A DNA stretch of 64,000 nt from Pristiophorus japonicus (Eukaryota), in the NCBI RefSeq assembly GCF_044704955.1, contig NC_091977.1:249178001-249242000 (forward strand). The letters run 5' to 3'. Under the pieces are notes generated by a model. The model saw only the letters and a list, made by a program, of their open reading frames with translations. It was not told the origin of the DNA and did no database searches. Made by a program: the position numbers and the translations under genes. Positions 7,501 to 63,588 of the stretch are shown here, in pieces (position 1 is the first letter of the stretch; every line of letters begins with the position of its first letter).

Positions 7501-7900
7501 AGGATGCATTTATTTGTAACACCTAAAGCTCTGATTGGGCCCCCTTGATGACAAGTCCTTATTGCTGATTGGTCCCCATGGAGGATAAGACACACACAGC
7601 AGTTTATTTTTGCAAAGTGTAATTCAAGCCATTCTGACTGCCGACTCCAGACAGATCAGAGCTCACTTAGAACAGACAGGGCTCACTCTCACGGGTTGCG
7701 ACTGTCATGTATTCTACTGTCATTGTAATCCATGAATAAACTGACCGAAGCTGTATACCGTGAGAACACTGACCACTAGATGGCGAACTTGTGGGAGACA
7801 CTCCTAACCTGGACTTTCAGGTATAAAAGGAGAAGCTCCACCCACCTTCATCACTTCAGTGCTGGAATAAAGGTTACTGGTCACAGAGTGACCTTCTCTC

Positions 7901-8060
7901 AACTGTCACAGGATGGGAGAGTGGAGAGCACCAGTTCCAACTGTCACAGGACTAGAGAGTGGAGAGCACCAGTTCAAACTGTCGCAGGAGAGAGTGGAGA
8001 GCACCAGTTCCAACTGTCACAGGAGAGAGTGGAGAGCACCAGTTCAAACTGTCACAGGAG
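7901..8060 (+). repeat. 35-38 bp tandem repeat AACTGTCACAGGA(nnn)GAGAGTGGAGAGCACCAGTTC(C/A), 4 full units plus a partial
   Basis: Directly visible; 2 full units plus a partial in copy 2 (about 42515-42609). Confidence 0.95.
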
Positions 8061-8910
8061 CATCCAGTCGTGCCCCGGTAACTGCCCCCAAAGGAAGTGG
8101 AGTGTGGGAAATTGCACTCCGCTTCCATTGAGGGGTGGTAAGGCCAATTCTGCGGCGGGAGCAGGACTTCCACGATGGGGGCTAAAATTCCCTGCCCCAG
8201 AAGGTTACCGCCTCCAAGATGGGAGCCTGTGCGGGGAGGCAGAGGGAAGTTGAGGGGAGACGGGGGGGGGGGGGGGGAAGTAGTGGAGGTGGGGGGTGGG
8301 GGGCGGAGAAACCCAGGACGGGGGACAGGAGGGGCCACATTGCAGCGGAGGTCTGGGGGGGGCGACGTGTGTTGGGGGCTCTGTGCCTCGGTGCGGGGAA
8401 TGTTCAGAGTGGGGTGGACGGGTTGACTGTGCAGATGGTGGTTGGTGAATGTGGTGTGGTTGGTGTCGCGGGGGCGTGGCTCCGGGATGGCCGGGGCTGG
8501 GGGCTCGACATCCGGGGGTGTTTGGCAATTGGGAAGGATTCTGACGGGACGGGGTGGATTGGGTGCGGGGGGAGTGTTCCCGGTGTTGGGTGGGTCCGGA
8601 GCCGGTGGGGGGGGCCACGCTCTTGGGATGGGGGGTGGGCTGTTGGGGCTGGGATAGTGAGAGACTTCTTCACTCAGGGAGTTGTTGGCCTGTGGGGTTC
8701 CCTGCCGCGGAGAGTTGTTGATGCCAGTTCATTGGATGTGTTCGGGAGGGAGTTGAATGTGGTCCATGCGGCTGGGGGTGTCGGGGGATGTGGAGGGGGC
8801 GTGGGGGGGAAGGTGCTGGGGTGGGTGATCAGCCATGATCTTGTTGAATGGCGGTGCAGGCTCGAAGGGCCAAATGGCCTACTCCTGCACCTATTTTCTA
8901 TGTTTCTATG
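7903..8910 (+). mobile_element. Composite non-autonomous retroelement: VNTR + MITE-like segment + internally deleted, A->G hypermutated CR1 (copy 1, inserted in Gypsy 5' LTR)
   Basis: Absent from the 3' LTR; ends in CR1 tail CTATTTTCTATGTTTCTATG; aligns to in-window CR1 copies with mostly A->G changes; second copy at 41679-42609. Confidence 0.85.
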
Positions 8911-11900
8911 GGCCTCGTGTGCATGTATACTGTATAGTAAGGACACATTATTGGCGACGAGAAACTTGGATTTGAACCACGCGAGCATGGCAACTAGCAG
9001 TACAGACGAGAGGTACTGTGTTGGTGATGACTGGGACGATTTTATTGAGAGACTACAACAAAGTTTCGTCACGAAGGAATGGCTGGGACAGGATTCGGCC
9101 GACAAACGCAGGGCTCATCTCCTGACGGTTTGTGGATTCAGGACATACTCCCTGATGAAGAACCTTCTAGCGCCAGAGAAGCTGACAGACAAGACTTTTG
9201 AAGAGCTCAGTAAGTTGATCGGGGAACACTTTAAACTGGCGAGCAGCATGTACATGGCGAGACATCGGTTTTACACACACCGGCGGCGAGAAGGGCAAAG
9301 CGTTCCAGACTTCGTGGCAGACCTCCGGCGACTGGCGAGCCTATGTAAGTTTCCAGATGCATGCAGAGCGGAGATTCTGCGAGACTTCTTTATTGAGGGC
9401 ATTGGGCAGGCTGGGGTTTTCAGGAAACTGATTGAGACCAAAGACTTGACCCTGGAAACGGCGGCTTTGATGACCCAGACATTTATTTCAGGGGAGGAAG
9501 AGACCAGAATGATGTTTGACAAAAATCTTGGTTTAAATGCAGCAAATGGACAGGGAGTCAACATTGTTAACGCGGCACACAGTTCTCCAGGCAGACAGGG
9601 GCAATCAGATATGCCCGAGCATGTAGTCGAACCCAAAGGGGGAATTCAAGAGACAATGGCTAGCTGAACAGCGATTCATGCCATCGCAAGGGACAATGCG
9701 GCCAGTAATGGAGCCATCAACACCTGTCAATGATGCACTAAAGGACAGTTACAGAGACAGTCAGAGATGATCGACTGGTGATGGACCTTTTGTTTCCAAC
9801 AATGGCTCATGTTGGAGGTGTGGAGGCAAACACAAAGCCAGAGCTTGCAGGTATCAGCAATATACCTGCAGAAACTGCAACATCAGCGGTCACTTGGCGC
9901 ATATGTGCAGGAAGCCTACTGCCAGGTTGATGTACGAGGAGGACGGGGATGATGTAAGCCCTACGACGCCAAATGGACACTGGGGGAAATCGTTGGAAGC
10001 TGAAGTTCAGTGAGTTCATACACCAGGATGCCACCGATAATGATGAAAGTGCTCCTCAATGGCATCCCAGTATCAATGGAGCTAGACACGGGGGCCAGCC
10101 TGTCCCTGATGAGTATCAAACATTTCGACAAGTTGTGGGCGTCCAAGGCCAGGAGGCCAAAATTATTGCCAATTGACGCACAGCTACAGACATATGCAAA
10201 GGAAATAATTCCAGTGCTCAGCAGCGCCACGGTAGTCGTGACCCACAAAGATTCGGAGAACAGATTGCCATTCTGGATTGTCCCGGGGGACGGTCCTGCA
10301 CTGCTGCGGAGGAGTTGGCTGTCTGTCATCAACTGGAAATGGGGCAATGTCAATGCAATTTCTTCTGTGGAGCGAGCATCGTGCTCACAGGTCCTGGACA
10401 AATTTGACTCACTATTTCAACCCGGCATTGGCACTTTCATGGGGACTGAGGTAATGATTCACATAAACCCGGACGCCAGGCCAGTGCATCACAAGGCCAG
10501 AGCGGTGCTGTATGTGATGCGGGAAAAGATAGAAGGCGAATTGGACCGCCTGCTGAGGGAAGGCATCATCTCGCCAGTCGAATTTAGTGACTGGGTGAAC
10601 CCGATCGTACCGGTGCTGAAGGCGGGGATGAGTCGGTCAGGATATGTGGTGATTACAAGGCCACCATCAATCGGGTGTCACTCCAGGACCAGTACTCACT
10701 ACCGAGAGCGGAGGACCTCTTTGCGATGCTATCCGGTGGCAAACTTTTTTCAAAATTGGACTTGACCTCAGCTTACATGACCCAGGAGCTGGCGATTGAG
10801 TCGAAGAAGCTGACCACCATCACGACACACAAGGGGTTGTTTGAGTACAACAGATGTCCGTTTGGAATTCACTCAGCCGCCGCGATTTTTCAACGAAATA
10901 TGGAAAGCCTCCTCAAGTCGATTCCAAGGACGGTGGTTTTTCAAGACAACATCCTCATCACGGGTTGTGATACTGAAGAACACCTCCGCAACCTGGAGGA
11001 GGTGCTACGCAGACTGGACCGGGTAGGTGTGCGACTGAAAAAGGTGAAGTGCATCTTCCTAGCTCCAGAGGTAGAATTCCTGGGGATGAGGGTAGCAGCA
11101 AACGGGATCAGACCTACTGCGTCCAAAACAGAAGCGATCCAGAGAGCACCCAGACCCTGTAACACGACGGAGCTGCATGCGTTCCTGAGGCTCCTGAACT
11201 ATTTTGGTAACTTTCTTCCCAAATTGAGCAGCTGTTAGAGCCACTACAAGCACTCCTACGCAAAGGTCGCGAATGGGTCTGGGGGGGCAGCCAGGAAAGG
11301 GCTTTTGATAGAGCACAAAATTTGTTCTGCTCCAACAATCTGTTAACACAATATGCCCCATGTAAGAAACTTGTTTTAACGTGTGACGCGTCGTCCTATG
11401 GGGTCGGGTGTGTGTTGCAGCATGTTAATGCCAAGGGTCAGTTACAGCCTGTAGCTTATGCCTCCAGAAGTCTGTCCCAGGCAGAATGGGGCTACGGGAT
11501 GGTAGAAAAGGAAGCGCTTGCATGTGTATATGCTGTAAAAAAAAAAAATGCACCAGTACCCGTTTGGCAGGAAATTTGAGCTGGAGACAGATCACAAACC
11601 CCCAACGTCCCTTTTGGCCGACAACAAGGCCATAAATGCAAATGCAAATGCATCGGCCCGCACACAGAGGTGGGCACTCATGTTAGCCACCTATGACTAT
11701 ACAATTCGGCACAGGCTGGGCACTGAAAACTGCACCAATGCACTCAGCAGGCTCCCACTAGCCACCACCGAGGGAGCAACCGAGCATGCTGCTGAGATGG
11801 TCATGGCTGTTGAAGCTTTCAAAAGCGAAGGCTCACCCGTGACAGCCCGTCAGATTAAAGTCTGAACAAATAAAGACCCGCTACTGTCTTTAGTCAAGAA

Positions 11901-13973
11901 ATGTGTCCTGAATGGGGACTGGGTAGCCACGTACGTGGCATGCCCTGAGGAATTGAAACCATTTCACAGGCGCAAGGATGAACTCTCGATTCAGGTCAAT
12001 TGCCTACTATGGGGAAACCGAGTAGTCATGCCCCAGATGGGCAGAGAGATGTTCATCAGAGAACTCCACAATGAGTACCCGGGCATTGTCATGATGAAGG
12101 CAATTGCCAGGTCACACGTTTGGTGGCTAGGGAGAGATGCAGACCTGGAACTTTGTGTTCGCATGTCCAACACGTGTGCCCAGCTGGGCAATGCGCTCAG
12201 GGAAGCCCCCCTTAGCCCCTGGTCCTGGCCCGCCAAGACATGGTCACACATCCATGTGGACTACGCAGGTCCTTACATGGGAAAAATGTTTTTGGTTGTA
12301 GTAGACGCCTACTCCAAATGGATCGAGTGTGACATTCTCAATTCAAGCACATCCTCTGCCACGGTAGAGAGTCTATGGACAATGTTCGTCGCCCATGGTC
12401 TACCGGAAGTCTTGGTCAGCAACAATGGCCCGTGCTTTACAAGCATTGAATTCCAGGACGTCATGACAGGAAATATCTAACCATATCAGAACGGCACCGT
12501 TCAAGCCGGCCTCAAATGGCCAGGCGGAACGAGCCGTGCAGATAATCAAACAGGGGATGCTCAGAATCCAAGGGGGTTCCCTACAAAGCCGCTTATCACG
12601 CCTTCTGTTAGCCATTGGATGCCGACCACACTCGCTCACATGGGTCCCACCCACAGAGCTGTTAATGAAAAGGACGCTCAAAACCAGGTTATCCCTTATA
12701 CACCACCATGAAAGAAATTGTTGAGAGCAGGCGCCAGTCACAATGTGACGACCATGACAGGAATGCGAGGGCGCGATGTTTTGATGTCAATGACCCTGTC
12801 TTTGTCCTCAACTATGCTGCAGGGCCTAAATGGCTTGCAGGCACCGTGATTGCCAAAGAGGGGAATAGGATTCTGGTAAACACGTGGATCAAACAAAAGG
12901 GAGGTTCAGCAACCCCACAGAAGAAGCAGAGGAAGAACACGATGTAGAGTTCACTCCTCCACAGGTGACCGAACACCAGAACCAAGAGGAGCAGAGTCCA
13001 GTCACGCTGGGCAGTCCGGACAGGCCTGAGGCACCGCAAACAGCAGACACTCAGGCCAGCGACCAACAACCGGAGCCCCAACTCAGGTGCTCTACAAGGG
13101 AGCGTAAACCACCAGAGAGACTTAACCTGTGATCCCAATAAGACTTTGCGGGGGGGGGGGGGAGGTGATGTCATGTATTCTCCTGTCATTGTAATCCATG
13201 TATAAACTGACTTAAGTTGTACACCGTGAGAACACTGACCGCTAGCTGGTGAACTTGTGGGAGACACGCCTAACCTGGACTTTCAGGTATAAAAGGGGAA
13301 GCTCCACCCACCTTCATCACTTCAGTGCTGGAATAAAGGTTACTGGTCACAGAGTGACCTTCTTTCAAGTACGGGCCTCGTGTGCATTTATACTGCATAG
13401 TAAGGACACATTGAAGACTTTCTCCCACCCCCACCAAAGAAGTTCCTGCCCTCACACCACCCCCCCTTTCCTGACCTTCCCCCCCACCCAAGTGCCTAAC
13501 CTCCCCCCAGCACAGGTTCCTGACTTCTCCCCCACCCTTTCGCCCTCCCCCATCTCTCTCTCTCTCTCTCTCTCTGTCTCCCCCTCCCCCCCTCTCTCCG
13601 TCTCCCCCCTTCTCTCTCTCCATCTGCAACTCTTGCTCTCTCTCTCATATTAGTGTCCCCAGCTCACCAGCTCGATGATAATAAGGCCCGAGGCCCAATA
13701 TCGGGTACGCTTCGGTCCTCACCATTCAGGCGCATGAATCATTCCTGGCGCCCCGCTTGCCCAAAAATGGCCAAGTATCTAGGCCAAGATTTTTAACATA
13801 TTATAAGACTGTATCAATATGACCACAATGGTGTCATTCAAAGTATATACAGCCCTTTCTGAGGAAGCTGCAAGAGGGTAAGTTAATTACCAGAAAGGAT
13901 ATTTACGAGAGTCAATAATATGCAGCTAATAATCATGGACTTCCTTTAAAATTATTGTCTTTAGATTGCTTAC

Positions 13974-29082: not shown

Positions 29083-32000
29083 TGTTATGTCTCAAATAAA
29101 GCAATGTGACTGAGTACTGTAGACTTGAGTAAGTGTGACTTTAGTCCCTTTATTCTGACTCCAGAGTGCCTGCACAGCATGGGAGGCCCGCTTATATGCA
29201 GTGCTCCCAAGTTACGCTGGGATCCTTTGGGACTCCAACAGATGCGCCCTCTGGTGGCAGTAGAATGCTGGTTACAAGGTGTTGCATACATAACATCACT
29301 CTCCCCCGCACTCCCCCACACCAAAATCAATAGTTCACTTATTTACAGGATGAGACGATCTGGGGCTTTCTATTCCCTAGTCGATCGTCTCGGTACAAAC
29401 ATAGGTGCAGGTGATTTGGTTGGGCCTTCGCTGGGCTGCTGGGGATGATGAGTTTAGCTTCGTGGTCAACCGTGATGTTGGTTGCCATTTGTGTGTGTAT
29501 CGGAGGGTCGAAGTTGGTGGTGTCCTCTTCAGGTTGCTCGTGGCTGTCAGTGAATCGCAGTTTGGTTTGGTCCAAATGCTTTCTGCAAGTTAATCCATTT
29601 GCAAGTTTGACCTCAAACACCCTACTCCCTTCTTTGGCTATGACAGTGCCAGCAAGCCATTTGGGACCATGACCATAGTTGAGTACAAATACAGGGTCAT
29701 TGACTTCAATATCGCATGACAAATTTGCGCGATCATAGAAACATAGAAAATAGGTGCAGGAGTAGGCCATTCGGCCCTTCGAGCCTGCACCACCATTCAA
29801 TAAGATCATGGCTGATCATTCACCTCAGTACCTCTTTCCTGCTTTCTCTCCATACCCCTTGATCCCTTTAGCCGTAAGGGCTGTATCTCACTCCCCCTTA
29901 AATATATCCAATGAACTGGCATCAACAACTCTCTGCGGTAGGGAATTCCACAGGTTAACAACTCTCTGAGTGAAGAAGTTTCTCCTCATCTCAGTCCTAA
30001 ATGGCTTACCCCTTATCCTAAGACTATGTCCCCTGGTTCTCGACTTCCCCAACATCGGGAACATTCTTCCTGCATCTAACCTGTCCAATCCCGTCAGAAT
30101 TGTATATGTTTCTATGAGATCCCCTCTCATCCTTCTAAACTCCAGTGAACACAGGCCCAGTCGATCCAGTCTCTCCTCATGTCAGTCCTGCCATCCCGGG
30201 AATCAGTCTGGTAAACCTTCGCTGCACTCCCTCAATAGCAAGAACGTCCTTCCTCAGATTAGGAGACCAAAACTGAACACAATATTCCAGATGAGGCCTC
30301 ATTAAGGCCCTGTACAACTGCAGTAAGATCTCCCTGCCCCTACACTCAAATCCCCTAGCTATGAAGGCCAACATACCATTTGCCTTCTTCACCGCCTGCT
30401 GAACCTGCATGCCAACTTTCAATGACTGATGTACCATGACACCCAGGCCTCACTGCACCTCCCCTTTTCCTAATCTTCCGCCATTCAGATAATATTCTGC
30501 CCTCCAGTTTTTGCCCCCAAAGTGGATAACCTCATATTTAACCACATTATACTGCATCTGCGATGTGTTTGCTCACTCACCTAACCTATCCAAGTCCTCT
30601 GCAGCCTTTTAGCGTCATCCTCACAGCTCTCACTGCCACCCAGCTTAGTGTCATCTGCAAACTTGGAGAAATTACACTCAATTCCCTCATCCAAATCATT
30701 AATGTACATTGTAAATAGCTGGGGTCCCAGCACTGAGCCCTGCGGTACCCCATTAGTCACTGCCTGCCATTCTGAAAAGGACCCGTTTATCCCGACTCTC
30801 TGCTTTCTGTCTGCCAACCAGTTCTCTATCCACATCAGTACATTACCCCCTATACCATGTGCTTTCATTTTGCACACCAATCTCTTGTGTGGGACCTTGT
30901 CAAAAGCCTTTTGAAAGTCCAAATACACCACATCCACTGGTTCTCTAATGTTACATGCTTTGTTGATGCCGCCTGCCCTCGACATGATCATGGAGATCAG
31001 GGTGGACTAGAGAGAGCCTTGCTTTGAGTGCCCTTTTCACGAGCAGTTCGGCAGGGGGATCCCCGGTGAGCGAGTGCGGTAGCTGAGCAGGACTCAGGAC
31101 AGGCAGGTCTGCAGGGAGCCTTCCGACACGCGTTTCAAGCTTTGCTTGATGCTTGATGGTTCTGCCTGGCTGTTGTTGTAGGCTTGAATGGGGCAGATGT
31201 GACGTGCTTGATCCCATTGTGGGTCATGAATTCCTTGAATTCAGCGCTGGTGAAGCACGGCCCAATGTCGCTGATAAGGCAAACATGGCTCGTAGGCTTT
31301 CGATGGTGGCAGTGGATGTGCTTACAGACATTATTACACACTCAATCCATTTTAAATAAGCATCCACAACAACCAAAAACATTTTGCCTAGAAACGGGCC
31401 AGCAAAGTCAATGTGGATCCTAGACCACGATTTGGAGGGCCATGACCACAAACTTAGCGGTGCCTCCCTGGGTGCATTGCTCAGTCGAGGGCAAGTGTTG
31501 CATTGGCACACGCAAGACTCCAAATCTGAGTCGCTGTCGGGCCACCACACATGGGATCTGGCTATAGCTTTCATCATTACTATGCCTGGGTGGGTACTGT
31601 GTAGGTTGCGTATGAGTAATTCCCTGCCTTTCTTAGGCAAAACCACGCGATTACCCCACAAAAGACAGTCCGCCTGTATGGACATTTTGTCTTTGCGCCA
31701 CTGGAACGGCTTGATCTCATCATGCATCTCCGCTGGACCAGCTCCCATGGAGGACACAGTTTTTTTTTTTTACAAGGGACAGTAAAGGATTCTGGCTGGT
31801 CCAGGTCCTGATCTAGCGGGCCGTAATGGGTGACTTTTCGTTTTCAAATGCATCCATCACCAAGAACAAGTCTGCAGGCTGTGCCATTTCCAATCCGGTG
31901 GTGGGCAATGGTAGCTGACTGAGAGCATCAGCACAGTTCTCTGTGCCTGGCCTGTGGCGAATTACATAGTTATATGCAGACAACGTGAGCGCCCATCTTT

Positions 32001-36449: not shown

Positions 36450-37975
36450 AAAATTACTGGCAAAATTCGATTACCCTGATCAACACTTCAAAGCTCTGTT
36501 TCCCACCCGCAGCCAACCAAATGGAGAGGCTTGCTGACTGTAGGACAAACAGGCCTGTGGCACTAGGCCACAGAGAGGAGGGAGGGAGGGAACGCTGAGT
36601 GGATGGAGATGGGGGTGGGAGAGGGTGAATTGGGGACAGAGGATGATCGTTGGGGTCAATTGGGGCCGGAGACTGGTTGTGGGAGGGGGTGATTTGGGAG
36701 GATGATCGGGTGGGGGAGGGGGGGGGGGCGGGGGTGGAGAGAGATAAATCTGGGCTGGAGGGCAATCAAGGGTTGGGAGGGGGGCAGATGAATCGGGGTC
36801 GGAGGATGATCGGGGTGGTGGGTGTGTGAATTGGGACCGGAGCAGGATCAGAGGGTAGGATGAATTGAGTGGGGGTAAATTGGGGCCAGAGAAGGATCTG
36901 GGGGGAGTGTTGAATCGATGCCAGAGGAGCATCAGGGGTTGGGGGTGTGGTCGTTGGGGGCCGGAGGGGGGAGGCCAGGAAGGCAATCGAAGGCTGGAGG
37001 TGGGAGGTATTAGGCCAGAGTGGGGATCAGAGGCCTAGGTTGGGGAGATGTCTGATCATAGGTGGTGGGTGAAGCAGGGTCGCTGGATTCATCAGGTAAG
37101 TATAAAGGTACATACCTCCTAGATCCAGCAGTCCTTGCCTCCAGTTAGCCGCTGGGTTCCCGAGGCCCTGGAATCCCAGCCAGCCAGAGTTAAATTTGAA
37201 AAGGTGGATCACTAGGAGGCACGCCAGACTCATTATCATATTTAAATGAGTGACCTGCTTTCTGGGACCAGGTTGGCTGCCCGCCCCCATTCCGCCTCGG
37301 TTAAAACCAAAAGTGGTCGGATTGGAGACGGGTTGGGGTCGGGATTCCGTTTTTATAACTCTTTAACCTCTCACCCGACCCCAATTCACCTGTTTTTTGG
37401 GGTTAAAATTCCACCCAGACTCTGAAATTCTAGGGTTGGAAGAGGGATTTGCACCTATGCCCAGGAAGTAGATCTATGGAAATTTGGGCAACCCTCAGCC
37501 GCCTGCTGGCACTCAGGTAAAGTGTGGGTATTGGGTATCAGGGTTCCGGTGTGGGGGGGGGGGGGGTGTGTAGTGTCATGTGGTAAAAAAGGGGTGGCAT
37601 TGTCCTAAGCTTTTTTTAATGGGCTTGGCGGAAGTCTCCGGTTCCACCTGGCCTCACAAAGTAAGAAACTTATCTTGAATGGCTTCTTCTGTTTCCGATA
37701 CTCTTCCCACTTGACTTTACCCTGGCTGGAATGTCGCGGCAGCAGTGTTAGGTCGGAGTTATAATTGTGGCCGGGCACGATATCATCATCAGACCCCGAG
37801 CTACAGATTAAAAGAAGGACCTCGCCAGCTCCAAGGTGGGCCTTTTCCAGCTGCGCAGAAGAGCAGGTTAAAACTGAAGACGATGGGATCCAGGTAGGAC
37901 ATTGGCAGCTAAAGTCACCCAGTTTATTTTAACTGCCTACCCACTGGATGGGTGGCAAGGTTAGAATTGACCCCC
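36450..37975. mobile_element. Probable Harbinger-derived non-autonomous elements with a G-rich degenerate repeat (about 36570-37080)
   Basis: Ends such as AAAATTCCACCC (about 37416) and GAATTGACCCCC (about 37975); boundaries uncertain. Confidence 0.4.
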
Positions 37976-40887: not shown

Positions 40888-42760
40888 TGGCCTAGAAATT
40901 CAGCTGCTCATCACCTATTTTCTGGTCGCTAAACAGCCTCCGAAGCTTTCAATACAGCAAGTATAGTGTACACATTCCTGGCTGGCAAAGATAGAAAAAG
41001 GTAGATGCACTCATGATAGGAGCACACATGGGGATCAGTTTAACAATGGATGGAGGCAAGATGATTCTTGCTCAGAAATACCGAGAAAGACTGTCCAGCA
41101 AATCTGTAAGTTTACATTGTGATTGGAGCTGGGTGTGCAAGATCCATGCGTTGGGAATGGTTCCAAATGCATCTTTCTAAGGTCATTTTCTTAATTCTAG
41201 GCTACCAAGTATGGTTGGGAAGGCTGATATAAATTAAGTAATTAGAAATAAGTTAGGAGAAACAATGAGTAATTCTTATGCCACTCTGAAAAGATAAAAT
41301 GGACTATAACACTTTTTACACTGTTTAACTCTGTTTAGAGCATGAGGAACATCTATTGCCCATCTATCTCGAAATCCCAGATGAGGTACATGTACTCCTT
41401 TGGAATAAATCTTTCCTCCGGTTCTTTCCAGGTACCACGGAGGACCTGTCAGTCTGCAGCAGATCATTGCACAAAACAGGTGACTGATACCTTAACTGCA
41501 ACAGCAAGCAACATCACTGTCCCCTTAGACAACAGGAAAGAAGAAGATTGAGCACGAGGTTTCCATCGAGTAACAGGATTCCAAAAATCCAGGCTGTCAC
41601 TGCTGTGCTACAGATGGCTTTCCAATTGCCAGTCACTTCAAGACTGACTGCATGCTTTTAGTACATGAGCAGCCCACACATAGAAACATAGAAACATAGA
41701 AAATAGGTGCAGGAGTAGGCCATTTGGCCCCTCGAGCCTGCACCGCCATTCAACAAGATCATGGCTGATCACCCACCCCAGCACCTCCCCCCCACACCCA
41801 CCGACCCCCCCAGCCACAAGGACCACATCCAACTCCCTCCCGAACACATCCAAAGAACTGGCATCAGCAACTCTCCACGGCAGGGAACCCCACAGGCCAA
41901 CAACTCCCCGAGTGATGAAGTCTCTCACAATCCCAGCCCCAAACAGCCCACCCCCCATTCCAAGAGCGTGCCCCCCCCACCCGGCTCCAGACCCACCCAA
42001 CACCGGGAACACTTCCCCCCGCACCCAACCTGCCCCGTCCCGTCAGAATCCTTCCCAAATGCCGAACATCCCCGGATGTCGAGCCCCCAGCCCCGGCCAC
42101 CCCAGAGCCACGCCCCCGCGATGCCAACCACACCACATCCACCAACCGCCATCTGCTCAGTCAACCCGTTCATCCCACTCTGAACATTCCCCGCACCGAG
42201 GCACGAGCCCCCAGGCCCGCCCCTCCAACACACTTCGCGCCCCCCCAGACCTCCGCTGCAATGTGGCCCCTCCTGTCCCCGGCCCTAGGTTTCTCCGCCC
42301 CCCCACCTCCACCACTCTCCCCTCCATCCCCCTCAGCCTCCCCGCACAGGCTCCCATCTTGGGGGCGGTAACCTTCTGGGGACAGGAATTTTAGCCCCCA
42401 GCGTGGAAGTCCTGCTCCCGCCGCAGAATTGGCCTTACCACCCCTCAATGGAAGCAGAGTGCAATTTCCCACACTCCACTTCCTTTGGGGGCAGTTACCA
42501 GGGCATGACTGGATGCTCCTGCGACAGTTGGAACTGGTGCTCTCCACTCTCTCGTCCTGTGACAGTTGGAACTGGTGCTCTCCACTCTCCAGTCCTGTGA
42601 CAGTTTGAATATATATATACGGGTTGTGAAATTCTCCACATCAGCCACCGTGTCTTGGAAGCTGCGAGACACATTCCAATGATTCCAACCATCTCTCATG
42701 CACCAAAAGCTCAGAGGATGTGAACGGAAGTGAGCTCATTCTCCAGCCAGCAGTAGTATT
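40888..42760 (+). mobile_element. Old Harbinger transposase remnant hosting composite element copy 2
   Basis: GGCCTAGAAATT start; LSSGSFQ...CQSAADHCTKQVTD fragment. Confidence 0.5.
41679..42609 (-). mobile_element. Composite VNTR/MITE/A->G hypermutated CR1 element (copy 2)
   Basis: Reverse complement is colinear with 7903-8910, including the GGGAAGGA|TTCTGACGGG deletion junction and tail. Confidence 0.88.
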
Positions 42761-43184: not shown

Positions 43185-43416
43185 CTGTGTGTCAGTAAAG
43201 AGAAAGACCGTATCTTTGTCCTCAACCCCAGCCAAGATATAAAGTTTCCGCAGGTCCTCGTGGAACGATTCATAGTTATAACCACGGCTGAGTTCAATTT
43301 GAAAGCACTTGTAGTTACATACGTGAGCAGCCAGTCGTGTGAGGGACTGTTTGCCCGTACCTCCAATACCCACAAGAAGTGCATTCCCTCGTTCTTGGCG
43401 AATAATGCGGGCAATT
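43185..43416 (-). CDS. DNAH6: Dynein heavy chain exon with AAA4 P-loop (GNALLVGIGGTGKQS)
   Basis: ttgcag acceptor, gtatgg donor; 232 bp; Walker A GxGGxGKQS of dynein AAA4. Confidence 0.93.
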
Positions 43417-61581: not shown

Positions 61582-63588
61582 GGGCCCAAGTTTCCACAAG
61601 AAAAACAACGGGCGCCCCTCCGAGCTGGGCGCCCGTTTTTCGCACCTAAAAAAATCCTCGGTAGTCTCCACCGACTTACAGGTCCTGTGGCACTCGGCGC
61701 AGCCGGCACGAGTTGTGGGGGGGGGCGGAGCCAGGTCCCTGCGCTGAAAACAGTGCCGGGACCTCTGCACATGCACGCTACAGTCGGCATGCAAGTGCAG
61801 TAGCTCCAGGCGCCGAACTGTGTGGGAGGGGCCCGAAGCACGCAGCCCCTAACCCTGGCCCAATGGCCTCACTGGGGCTGCGTGAATGAGGCTCCTCTCA
61901 CGGCCAGCTCCTGCTCTCCGCCCAACCAGACCCGACACTCGCTCCGCCCCCCGCCGACCAGACCCGACCCGACACCCGCTCCCCCCCGCCCCGACCCGAC
62001 ACCCGCTCTCTCCCCCCGCCCCGACCCGACACCCGAGACCCGCTCCCCCCCGCCCCGACAGAGACCCGACACCCGCTCTCTCCCCCCGCCCCGACCCGAC
62101 ACCCGAGACCCGCTCCCCCCCGCCCCGACAGAGACCCGAGACCCGCTCTTCCCCCCCCCCCCGACCCGACACCCGAGACCCGCTCCCCCCCGCCCCGACA
62201 GAGACCCGACACCCGCTCTCTCCCCCCGCCCCGACCCGACACCCGAGACCCGCTCCCCCCCGCCCCGACAGAGACCCGAGACCCGCTCTTCCCCCCCCCC
62301 CCCGACCCGACACCCGAGACCCGCTCCCCCCCCGCCCCGACAGAGACCCGACACCCGCTCTCCCCCCCCGCCCCGACCTGACACCCGAGACCCGCTCCCC
62401 CCCGCCCGACAGAGACCCGAGACCCGCTCCCCCCCCCGCCCCGACCCGACACCCGAGACCCGCTCCCCCCCCGCCCCGACAGAGACCCGACACCCGCTCT
62501 TCCCCCCCCCCCCCCGACCCGACACCCGAGACCCGCTCCCCCCCGCCCGACAGAGACCCGAGACCCGCTCCCCCCACGCCCCGACAGAGACCCGACACCC
62601 GCTCTTCCCCCCCCCCCCGACCCGACACCCGAGACCCGCTCCCCCCCGCCCGACAGAGACCCGAGACCCGCTCTTCCCCCCCCCCCCCGACCCGACACCC
62701 GAGACCCGCTCCCCCCCCGCCCCGACAGAGACCCGACACCCGCTCTCCCCCCCCGCCCCGACCTGACACCCGAGACCCGCTCCCCCCCGCCCGACAGAGA
62801 CCCGAGACCCGCTCCCCCCCCGCCCCGACAGAGACCCGACACCCGCTCTTCCCCCCCCCCGCCCCGACCCGACACCCGAGACCCGCTCCCCCCCGCCCGA
62901 CAGAGACCCGAGACCCGCTCTCCCCCCCCCGCCCCGACCCGAGTCCCGCTCCCCGACCCGAGGCCCGCTCCCCCCCCCCCGACCCGACACCCGCTCCCCC
63001 CCCCCCTCTCTCCCCCCCCCCTCTCTCCCCCCCCCCCCCACCCCCTCTCTCCCTCCCTCTCTCGCTCCCTCTCTCGCTCCCTCTCTCGCTCAGCGGCACG
63101 AACAGCTGCAGAATTCTCCCTGGCTGAAACACTTTCGCACAGGTAGGAAGATGGTTTATTTAGTCTTTTCTTGGCTTATAAATGTTTATTCAGGTTGGAT
63201 TTATTTGTATAATATTTGTAGAAGTATAAATAAGGATTTATTGTCAAATTTAATGAGTTCCCTTCCCCCCCACCTCGTTCTGGGCGCCTAATTTGTAACT
63301 TGCGCCTGATTTTTTAATGTGTAGAACAGGTTTTTTCAGTTCTACAAAAATCTTCACTGGCGCAATTCTACTTTAGTTTGGAGTACGTTTTCACTGTGGA
63401 AACTTTCAAATCAGGCGTCAGTGGCCGGACACGCCCCCTTTTGAAGAAAAAATTCTGTTAAACTAAAACTGTTCTACCTGACTAGAACTGCAGAAAAAAA
63501 AATGTGGAGAATTGCGATTTCTAAAATAGTCCGTTCTCCACCAGTTGCTCCTAAAAATCAGGCGCGAATCATGTGGAAACTTGGGCCC
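61582..63588 (+). mobile_element. Harbinger-type MITE, family A, with expanded VNTR
   Basis: TIR GGGCCCAAGTTTCCAC / GTGGAAACTTGGGCCC; arms closely match 45291-46474. Confidence 0.88.
61930..63000. repeat. C-rich compound minisatellite
   Basis: Interleaved units CCCGACCCGACACCCGAGACCCGCTC(C)n and GCCCCGACAGAGACCCGA(C/G)ACCCGCTC. Confidence 0.95.

What the first reader, a model, noticed from the sequence alone, without database searches (positions are those of the whole stretch)
41679..42609. Second, independently inserted copy: the hyper-edited element is an amplifying family, possibly re-edited each cycle
Seen: the reverse complement shares the architecture, deletion junction and most G sites of copy 1, but sits in a different host (Harbinger remnant rather than Gypsy LTR) with its own tail length and 5' end. 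It has extra Gs where copy 1 keeps A: CACTCAGGGAG -> CACTCGGGGAG and CTCGAAGGGCC -> CTCGAGGGGCC. Inference: editing preceded amplification, and private A->G changes may reflect further editing rounds, an A-depletion ratchet. Two copies in 64 kb suggest a high genomic copy number.
Basis: partly seen in the sequence, partly recalled or inferred. Interest (0 to 1): 0.85.

Follow-up and report, generated by a model that had tools for sequence, protein, structure and literature searches.

The report
Retroposon family from one edited RNA
This G-rich stretch is one of an estimated 1,800 scattered copies of a short jumping element whose LINE-derived body has two thirds of its A's changed to G on one strand, likely by the RNA-editing enzyme ADAR acting on a single founder RNA; the copies show no further rounds of editing but likely swap sequence with neighbours up to about 10 million bases away.

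Summary
Confirmed: a separate insertion of a dispersed family (1,117 junction matches, about 1,800 copies), roughly 100-fold rarer than two copies per 64 kb implies. Anatomy: 37-bp tandem array, 161-nt unedited head, two CR1-type LINE pieces joined across a 2,359-nt deletion, intact 3' stem-loop and tail. 145 of 227 LINE A's read G, ordered by 5' neighbour U>A>C>G like ADAR. Re-editing each cycle is not supported: edited and native G's decay alike (1.84% vs 1.86%), A>G is 135 of 3,252 changes, and 0 of 167 copies lost A's net. An unedited CR1 with the same deletion lies beside an inverted full-length CR1 on C18, a likely source or sister. Copies under 10 Mb apart share rare variants 4-12 times above background in a reticulate pattern, likely gene conversion. 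This scan found the family and the unedited relative before on other DNA; my look-ups showed no note of the neighbour exchange.

The parts
41679..42609 (-). Copy 2 of the hyper-edited non-autonomous CR1-derived retroposon
   Evidence: 3.4% from family consensus
42521..42609 (-). 37-bp tandem array, 2 full units plus a part; 5'-truncated here; 0 to more than 180 units in other copies
42359..42520 (-). 161-nt unedited head, a piece of another dispersed repeat (74% over 153 nt to a flank of L062)
42048..42358 (-). Hyper-edited CR1 piece 1: spacer behind the ORF1 stop and start of ORF2 (endonuclease N-terminus)
41754..42047 (-). Hyper-edited CR1 piece 2: end of ORF2 and 3' UTR, joined to piece 1 at a 2-nt microhomology across a 2,359-nt deletion
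41679..41753 (-). Unedited 3' end: predicted stem-loop and 8-nt tail repeats; all 12 A's kept in the consensus
41731..41731 (-).
41909..41909 (-).
7900..8910 (+). Copy 1, inserted at the 3' edge of an LTR without target-site duplication
29734..30945 (-). Unedited 5'-truncated copy of the parent CR1-type LINE

Best explanation
This is one of an estimated 1,800 dispersed copies of a non-autonomous, CR1-derived retroposon whose shared A-to-G changes were fixed before it multiplied, likely because one double-stranded LINE RNA was hyper-edited by ADAR and then reverse-transcribed into the germ line. Shown: the anatomy, the strand-specific A>G load with ADAR neighbour order, equal decay of edited and native G's, neutral divergence of copies, variable 5' truncation, unrelated flanks. 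Inferred: (1) a CR1 copy lost 2,359 nt of ORF2; (2) its read-through RNA folded back on an inverted CR1 (the C18 locus L182 has exactly this layout and is likely the source or a sister of it); (3) ADAR edited about two thirds of the A's, sparing the 3' stem-loop and tail that the CR1 reverse transcriptase likely needs; (4) a 5'-truncated cDNA landed in a repeat fragment behind a 37-bp minisatellite, so head and array are unedited; (5) read-through transcription of that master and CR1 proteins in trans made the family; (6) copies now decay by CpG loss and G>A, regaining A's, and likely exchange patches with neighbours by non-allelic gene conversion.
For: 145 of 227 aligned LINE A's are G, next class 5, T>C 2; edited by 5' neighbour T 31/31, A 56/70, C 28/43, G 30/67, p 1e-6, the order given for human ADARs in PMC3113232 (passages). 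Direction is fixed by the open ORF2 of the parent (Pfam RVT_1 and Exo_endo_phos_2). G>A at edited non-CpG G 209/11,382 vs native G 322/17,325, p 0.93 (site 291 left out). No copy of 167 keeps more than 10 A at the 145 edited sites. Net +6.9 A per copy, 0 of 167 with net loss. L182: unedited, same junction, ORF1 still upstream, 138 A>G to the consensus; inverted full-length CR1 begins about 270 nt downstream and covers both pieces at 88% and 84.5%; L182 carries the minor LINE haplotype seen in the element (two non-A/G markers together in 2 of 62 LINE rows). It is the only unedited junction found and the only junction-spanning hit among 40 scored of 7,343 candidates. Neighbour sharing falls smoothly from 17% of rare variants (<0.3 Mb) to 6% (3-10 Mb) to 1.4% (background), repeats in 40 new copies, adjacent pairs on C1 share 59 vs 14.4 in shuffles, maximum 32 of 5,000; shared sites cluster (span 175 vs 336 nt, 0 of 5,000) and are reticulate among trios.
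Against: No RNA evidence at all, and ADAR is inferred from the signature only. The editing level (64-69%) exceeds the 50-60% in-vitro ceiling quoted in PMC3113232. A>G still exceeds T>C among copies (0.87% vs 0.48%; context-matched odds ratio 1.5, p 0.009). An edited family copy lies only 8 kb from L182 (about 1% by chance), so L182's deletion could have been copied from it; L182 is not closer overall to the de-edited consensus than other LINE copies (7.1% vs 3.8-5.6% for the nearest ones in the 3' piece), and 17 non-A>G changes are private to the consensus. Editing does not track local pairing with the C18 partner (0.915 vs 0.913), and that partner would also pair the unedited tail. Inside shared spans neighbours differ as much as outside (4.8% vs 4.9%), against long clean conversion tracts. 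The master locus and its promoter were not found.
Confidence: 0.85

Rival explanations
1. Copies are re-edited at each retrotransposition cycle, ratcheting A's away.
For: A>G per A is 1.5-1.9 times T>C per T; three mid-frequency A/G sites (270, 291, 363) are largely unlinked.
Against: A>C/T is raised as much, so A>G is 52% of A changes vs T>C 48% of T changes, p 0.37; no ADAR context (5' T 5/859, 5' G 54/6,277); parent LINE copies show ratio 2.0, or 1.4 without shared sites; 0 of 167 copies lose A net; site 363 is ancestral G, and six of nine mid-frequency sites are not A/G.
Confidence: 0.05
2. The founder passed through two or more editing rounds before amplification, then stopped for lack of editable A's.
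For: 64-69% of A's edited, 45-49% even behind G, above the 50-60% in-vitro ceiling; the edited body is predicted still to pair with the antisense CR1.
Against: No partly edited intermediate among 167 copies, 20 junction loci or 40 scored hits; a single in-vivo molecule may exceed the ceiling.
Confidence: 0.25
3. L182 is not ancestral: a full-length CR1 in an unstable inverted pair acquired the deletion by repair templated on the edited copy 8 kb away; the true precursor is lost.
For: Edited copy 8 kb away; a 22-nt edit-free stretch spans the junction; neighbours of this family exchange sequence.
Against: L182 shares the element's minor LINE haplotype 70-90 nt from the junction across unedited A's; the one junction-near marker also occurs in another LINE copy.
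Confidence: 0.22
4. Neighbour similarity comes from local re-transposition (copies spawning daughters nearby), not gene conversion.
For: Sharing pairs are about 20% closer over their whole length (4.8% vs 6.0%), not only inside spans.
Against: Trios show mutually exclusive sharing in all three pairs (L078/L079/L210; L001/L096/L097), which no tree gives; shared sites cluster; no shared 5' flanks seen.
Confidence: 0.25
5. The G-richness is a DNA-level process or artefact (APOBEC on the other strand, biased conversion, sequencing error).
For: None found.
Against: Change is A>G on the sense strand only, stops at the LINE boundary and at the 3' stem-loop, has ADAR neighbour order, is identical in over a thousand loci, and contigs of a separate public run also lie along the edited body.
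Confidence: 0.02

Closest known systems
ADAR hyper-editing of long dsRNA from inverted repeats (PMC4365171, passages; neighbour rules PMC3113232, passages)
   Same: Dense one-strand A>G, G depleted upstream, order U>A>C>G, inverted partner nearby
   Different: Here the edits stand in genomic DNA and were multiplied about 1,800-fold; level 64-69%
APOBEC 'DNA editing' of LTR retroelements in vertebrate genomes (PMC4866542, passages; PMC2873906, passages)
   Same: Deaminase hypermutation of a retroelement fixed in the germ line
   Different: G>A on cDNA of LTR elements versus A>G on RNA of a non-LTR element; the word ADAR does not occur in PMC4866542
ADAR-type A>G hypermutation of Rous-associated and avian leukosis virus (as reviewed in PMC12925331, passage)
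   Same: Edited RNA recorded in DNA through reverse transcription
   Different: Exogenous retroviruses, single clones; no amplified endogenous family in the passage read
Composite non-autonomous retroposons SVA and LAVA (PMC3287187, PMC5174737; search listing and abstract starts only)
   Same: Tandem-repeat region plus pieces of older repeats, moved in trans by a LINE
   Different: CR1 partner with its own 3' end, no poly(A), body rewritten by editing
LINE-tailed SINEs with stringent 3' recognition, e.g. shark HE1/HER1 (PMC3747384, passages)
   Same: Keeps the partner LINE's 3' stem-loop and tail
   Different: No tRNA or other Pol III head
Gene conversion among neighbouring Alu elements (Aleshin and Zhi 2010, seen only as cited in PMC8230782)
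   Same: Sharing of non-diagnostic variants that falls with distance
   Different: About 10 kb range in Alu versus about 10 Mb here

Membership tests
ADAR-hyper-edited sequence | Dense A>G on the transcribed strand only | tested here: met
   145 A>G vs 2 T>C
ADAR-hyper-edited sequence | 5' neighbour order U>A>C>G | tested here: met
   31/31, 56/70, 28/43, 30/67; same order against L182
ADAR-hyper-edited sequence | Double-stranded substrate | tested here: inconclusive
   L182 has an inverted full-length partner; its transcription and source status are not shown
ADAR-hyper-edited sequence | Inosine in RNA, dependence on ADAR | not testable with these tools
   needs RNA or enzyme work
Non-autonomous non-LTR retroposon family | Dispersed copies, unrelated flanks, common 3' end, variable 5' truncation | tested here: met
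   (20 of 40 junction-picked copies truncated inside the body)
Non-autonomous non-LTR retroposon family | 3' end shared with a partner LINE; no coding capacity for reverse transcriptase | tested here: met
   last 67 nt match the LINE at 66; the 2,359-nt deletion removes most of ORF2
Non-autonomous non-LTR retroposon family | Mobilisation in trans shown | not testable with these tools
   needs a retrotransposition assay
CR1 clade (parent LINE) | ORF2 with endonuclease and reverse transcriptase, short-repeat tail, no target-site duplication | tested here: met
   Pfam hits; tails; copy 1 junctions; only 12 of 90 copies share 7 or more letters at both ends
CR1 clade (parent LINE) | Placement in CR1 by reverse-transcriptase tree; ORF1 esterase domain | tested here: inconclusive
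   no tree built; ORF1 fragment gave no Pfam hit; the label CR1 rests on recalled features and on the scan's notes
SINE in the strict sense | Head from tRNA, 5S or 7SL with Pol III promoter | tested here: not met
   no tRNA, no Rfam match near threshold
Iteratively edited lineage (ratchet) | A>G excess with ADAR context on branches after the founder | tested here: not met
Segmental duplication | Shared flanks | tested here: not met

The most novel reading that the evidence does not exclude
One ADAR-hyper-edited RNA molecule, made from a hairpin locus that still survives unedited on C18, was written into the germ line and founded a new 1,800-copy retroposon family, so a single editing event can be read site by site against its template; and the G-rich copies now recombine with each other over megabases, a thousand times the range reported for Alu.
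Probability: 0.5. Interest if true: 0.88.

Novelty: new variant of a known kind. Interest (0 to 1): 0.74.

Why it matters
It shows RNA editing, usually seen as a brake on retroelements and as non-heritable, creating a successful new element: the edit removed most ATG-rich coding traces, tripled CpG (15 to 47, in 694 vs 866 nt) and added G-run motifs (0 to 4), while the spared last 67 nt map what the LINE machinery likely needs. The family is also a natural marker set for long-range non-allelic gene conversion, which distorts repeat ages and subfamily trees.

Tried and rejected
No RNA holder listed for the stretch; run X1 is of unknown kind, contigs only, and covers the element but not the flanks: no statement on expression. 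Four pattern hits that looked partly unedited (L177, L183, L184, L190 and others) were edited copies with private G>A; L193, L196, L198 were 5'-truncated copies over-aligned into flanks; L195 was an ordinary LINE with a chance match. A three-letter scan of 866 kb of fetched DNA found no other hyper-edited LINE copy (one search gave nothing; one search recovered the positive controls and only weak subfamily-type hits); this sample is small and biased and does not contradict notes of dozens genome-wide. Splicing as cause of the deletion: no GT-AG at the junction, 2-nt microhomology instead. A shared 5' head beyond the array: none in five long arrays of 57-184 units. Regex genotyping of two sites failed and was redone. 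Harbinger identity of copy 2's host: untested in effect. The bacterial promoter scan is irrelevant. No branch-mapped tree was built, because reticulation makes it unreliable; frequency classes were used instead. Rows dropped: 5 of 100 copies for the alignment, 1 of 128 (L155), nine mid-frequency sites, and sites near gaps or other mismatches throughout. Nine literature searches (listings and abstract starts) showed no retroposon family founded by ADAR-edited RNA; subscription journals, Repbase and Dfam entries and supplements were not seen.

Full report
Observation. The reverse strand of window 41679-42609 aligns to 7900-8910 at 88%. Flanks differ, so this is no segmental duplication. Copy 1 interrupts the 3' edge of an LTR; comparison with the twin LTR shows short microhomology at both ends and no target-site duplication. 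Copy 2 lies in an old repeat with 7 other weak matches; the Harbinger label could not be confirmed.

Family size. A 24-letter head motif has 665 exact matches and is intact in 22 of 40 BLAST-picked copies: about 1,200 copies with the head. A junction pattern has 1,117 matches and hits 55 of 88 copies picked by the other motif: about 1,800 copies, one per 3.3 Mb of a 5.9-Gb genome; shorter copies are not counted. Two copies in 64 kb is about a 2% event, not a sign of extreme abundance. Copies are 3.4% from the consensus, end in the same tail and are cut at variable 5' points: 20 of 40 inside the body, the rest in a 37-bp array of 0 to more than 180 units with no common sequence beyond it.

Anatomy. 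Consensus 1-161 is an unedited piece of another repeat. 162-496 is the parent LINE's spacer behind ORF1 and the start of ORF2; 497-866 is the end of ORF2 and the 3' UTR; 2,359 nt between them are gone in three long parent copies measured, with a 2-nt microhomology. The parent has endonuclease and reverse-transcriptase Pfam hits; the name CR1 and the guess of a cartilaginous fish are recalled or taken from the scan's notes, not tested by a tree.

The founding edit. Of 227 aligned LINE A's 145 are G, 78 stay A, 4 are other; no other class exceeds 5. By 5' neighbour: T 31/31, A 56/70, C 28/43, G 30/67, the order U>A>C>G reported for human ADAR1 and 2 (PMC3113232, passages; G depletion also PMC4365171, passages). 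The last edit is at 799; the final 67 nt keep all 12 A's, four of them behind T, and fold into a predicted stem-loop, as expected for stringent 3' recognition (PMC3747384, passages). The level exceeds the 50-60% in-vitro ceiling, which leaves a second round before amplification open.

Edits were fixed before amplification. In 127 copies (1 of 128 dropped) G>A at edited non-CpG G's is 209/11,382 and at native G's 322/17,325 (p 0.93); at CpG 207/2,462 vs 51/810 (p 0.06). No copy of 167 has more than 10 A's at edited sites.

No ratchet. Over 167 copies, nine mid-frequency sites left out, 3,252 isolated substitutions hold 1,049 CpG transitions, 1,299 G>A and 135 A>G; singletons hold 43 A>G and 46 T>C; every copy has gained A's or stayed level (mean +6.9). 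With those sites in, A>G is 153 of 2,801. Against my reading, A>G per A exceeds T>C per T (0.87% vs 0.48%; context-matched odds ratio 1.5, p 0.009). But A>C/T is raised alike (p 0.37 for a specific excess), the rate is not higher behind T than behind G, head and tail show the same ratio, and 29 parent LINE copies give 2.0, or 1.4 without shared sites. Of nine mid-frequency sites three are A/G; 363 is ancestral G, 270G goes with the older alleles, 291A goes with a younger allele (p 0.002), so the master lineage mostly lost G's; the polarity of 291 stays uncertain.

A likely source. L182 (G000:C18, about 40,837,880-40,838,574, +) has the identical junction, ORF1 upstream, no array or head, and no editing: 138 A>G separate it from the consensus. 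A full-length inverted LINE starts about 270 nt behind it and matches both pieces; only 3 of 30 ordinary LINE loci had any inverted piece of 200 nt or more within 1.5 kb, one of them long. L182 shares a minor haplotype with the element. It is the only unedited junction found by two patterns and one DNA search (the last scored 40 of 7,343 candidates). Against: an edited copy lies 8 kb away, L182 is not nearer in overall distance, and editing does not follow local pairing. I put source-or-sister at about 0.78.

Neighbours exchange sequence. The share of rare non-CpG variants held in common is 16.8% for pairs under 0.3 Mb (9 pairs), 11.2% to 1 Mb (28), 8.5% to 3 Mb (58), 6.0% to 10 Mb (178), 2.1% to 20 Mb (193) and 1.4% beyond or across contigs; pairs with one of 40 newly fetched copies repeat the decay; adjacent pairs on C1 share 59 vs 14.4 shuffled (maximum 32 of 5,000). 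On C2 alone the first test was weak (12 vs 6.9, maximum 20). Shared sites cluster and are reticulate. Copy 2 shares site 357 with copy 1, 615 with copy 1, L096 and L097, 626 with L096, 822 with L097. Non-allelic gene conversion fits best; differences inside and outside shared spans are equal (4.8%, 4.9%; far pairs 6.0%), so tracts are patchy or old, and local re-transposition stays a rival. For Alu the range is given as about 10 kb (PMC8230782, passages). No control on ordinary LINE copies was possible.

Known relatives and novelty. Nearest are APOBEC-edited LTR elements (PMC4866542, PMC2873906; passages), ADAR-hypermutated avian retroviruses (PMC12925331, passage; it also says editing does not appear to be how ADAR1 restricts L1), and composite elements SVA and LAVA (listings only). 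PMC5974252 (passages) gave nothing on fixed edits. Nine searches showed no family founded by ADAR-edited RNA; repeat databases and closed journals were not seen. This scan noted the family, a similar copy number and the unedited relative earlier on other DNA; those notes are not independent support. Look-ups showed no note on neighbour exchange or on the test of re-editing.

Verdict. Real, striking family; amplification after a single (or brief) editing episode, confidence 0.85; re-editing each cycle 0.05. New variant of a known kind; interest 0.74.

Noticed in passing
G000:C18 about 40,846,200-40,847,100 (in L187): An edited family copy only about 2% from the consensus lies 8 kb from the unedited L182, on the other strand; about 1% by chance.
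   Followed up: partly
L062, L064, L065 (arrays of 184, 155, 132 units): The 37-bp array reaches about 7 kb in some copies, with copy-specific mixes of unit variants; it may expand after insertion and seed minisatellites.
   Followed up: partly
window about 43185-43410 (-): Exon-like frame with a P-loop that I recall as a dynein heavy chain module; if so copy 2 sits in an intron in the gene's sense. Not confirmed by a search.
   Followed up: no
window 7703-13368: LTR element with 94% identical LTRs and a gag/protease-like frame; copy 1 was inserted after it.
   Followed up: partly
consensus 27-76 (window about 42445-42494, -): The unedited head holds an imperfect inverted repeat (weak Rfam microRNA-precursor match, far below threshold).
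   Followed up: no
window 61928-63043: C-rich tandem array of about 1.1 kb; window 36500-37000 is a separate G-rich low-complexity stretch, not hit by the edited-LINE scan.
   Followed up: no
L086: The element's tail is replaced by an inverted LINE 3' end (tail-to-tail junction).
   Followed up: no
L202-L206, L208 (C13, 99-112 Mb): Six of the seven relatives of copy 2's host repeat cluster on one contig region, another hint of local spread or local homogenisation of repeats in this genome.
   Followed up: no
L136 and L147, 5' ends: The two longest parent LINE copies carry different tandem repeats upstream of ORF1.
   Followed up: no
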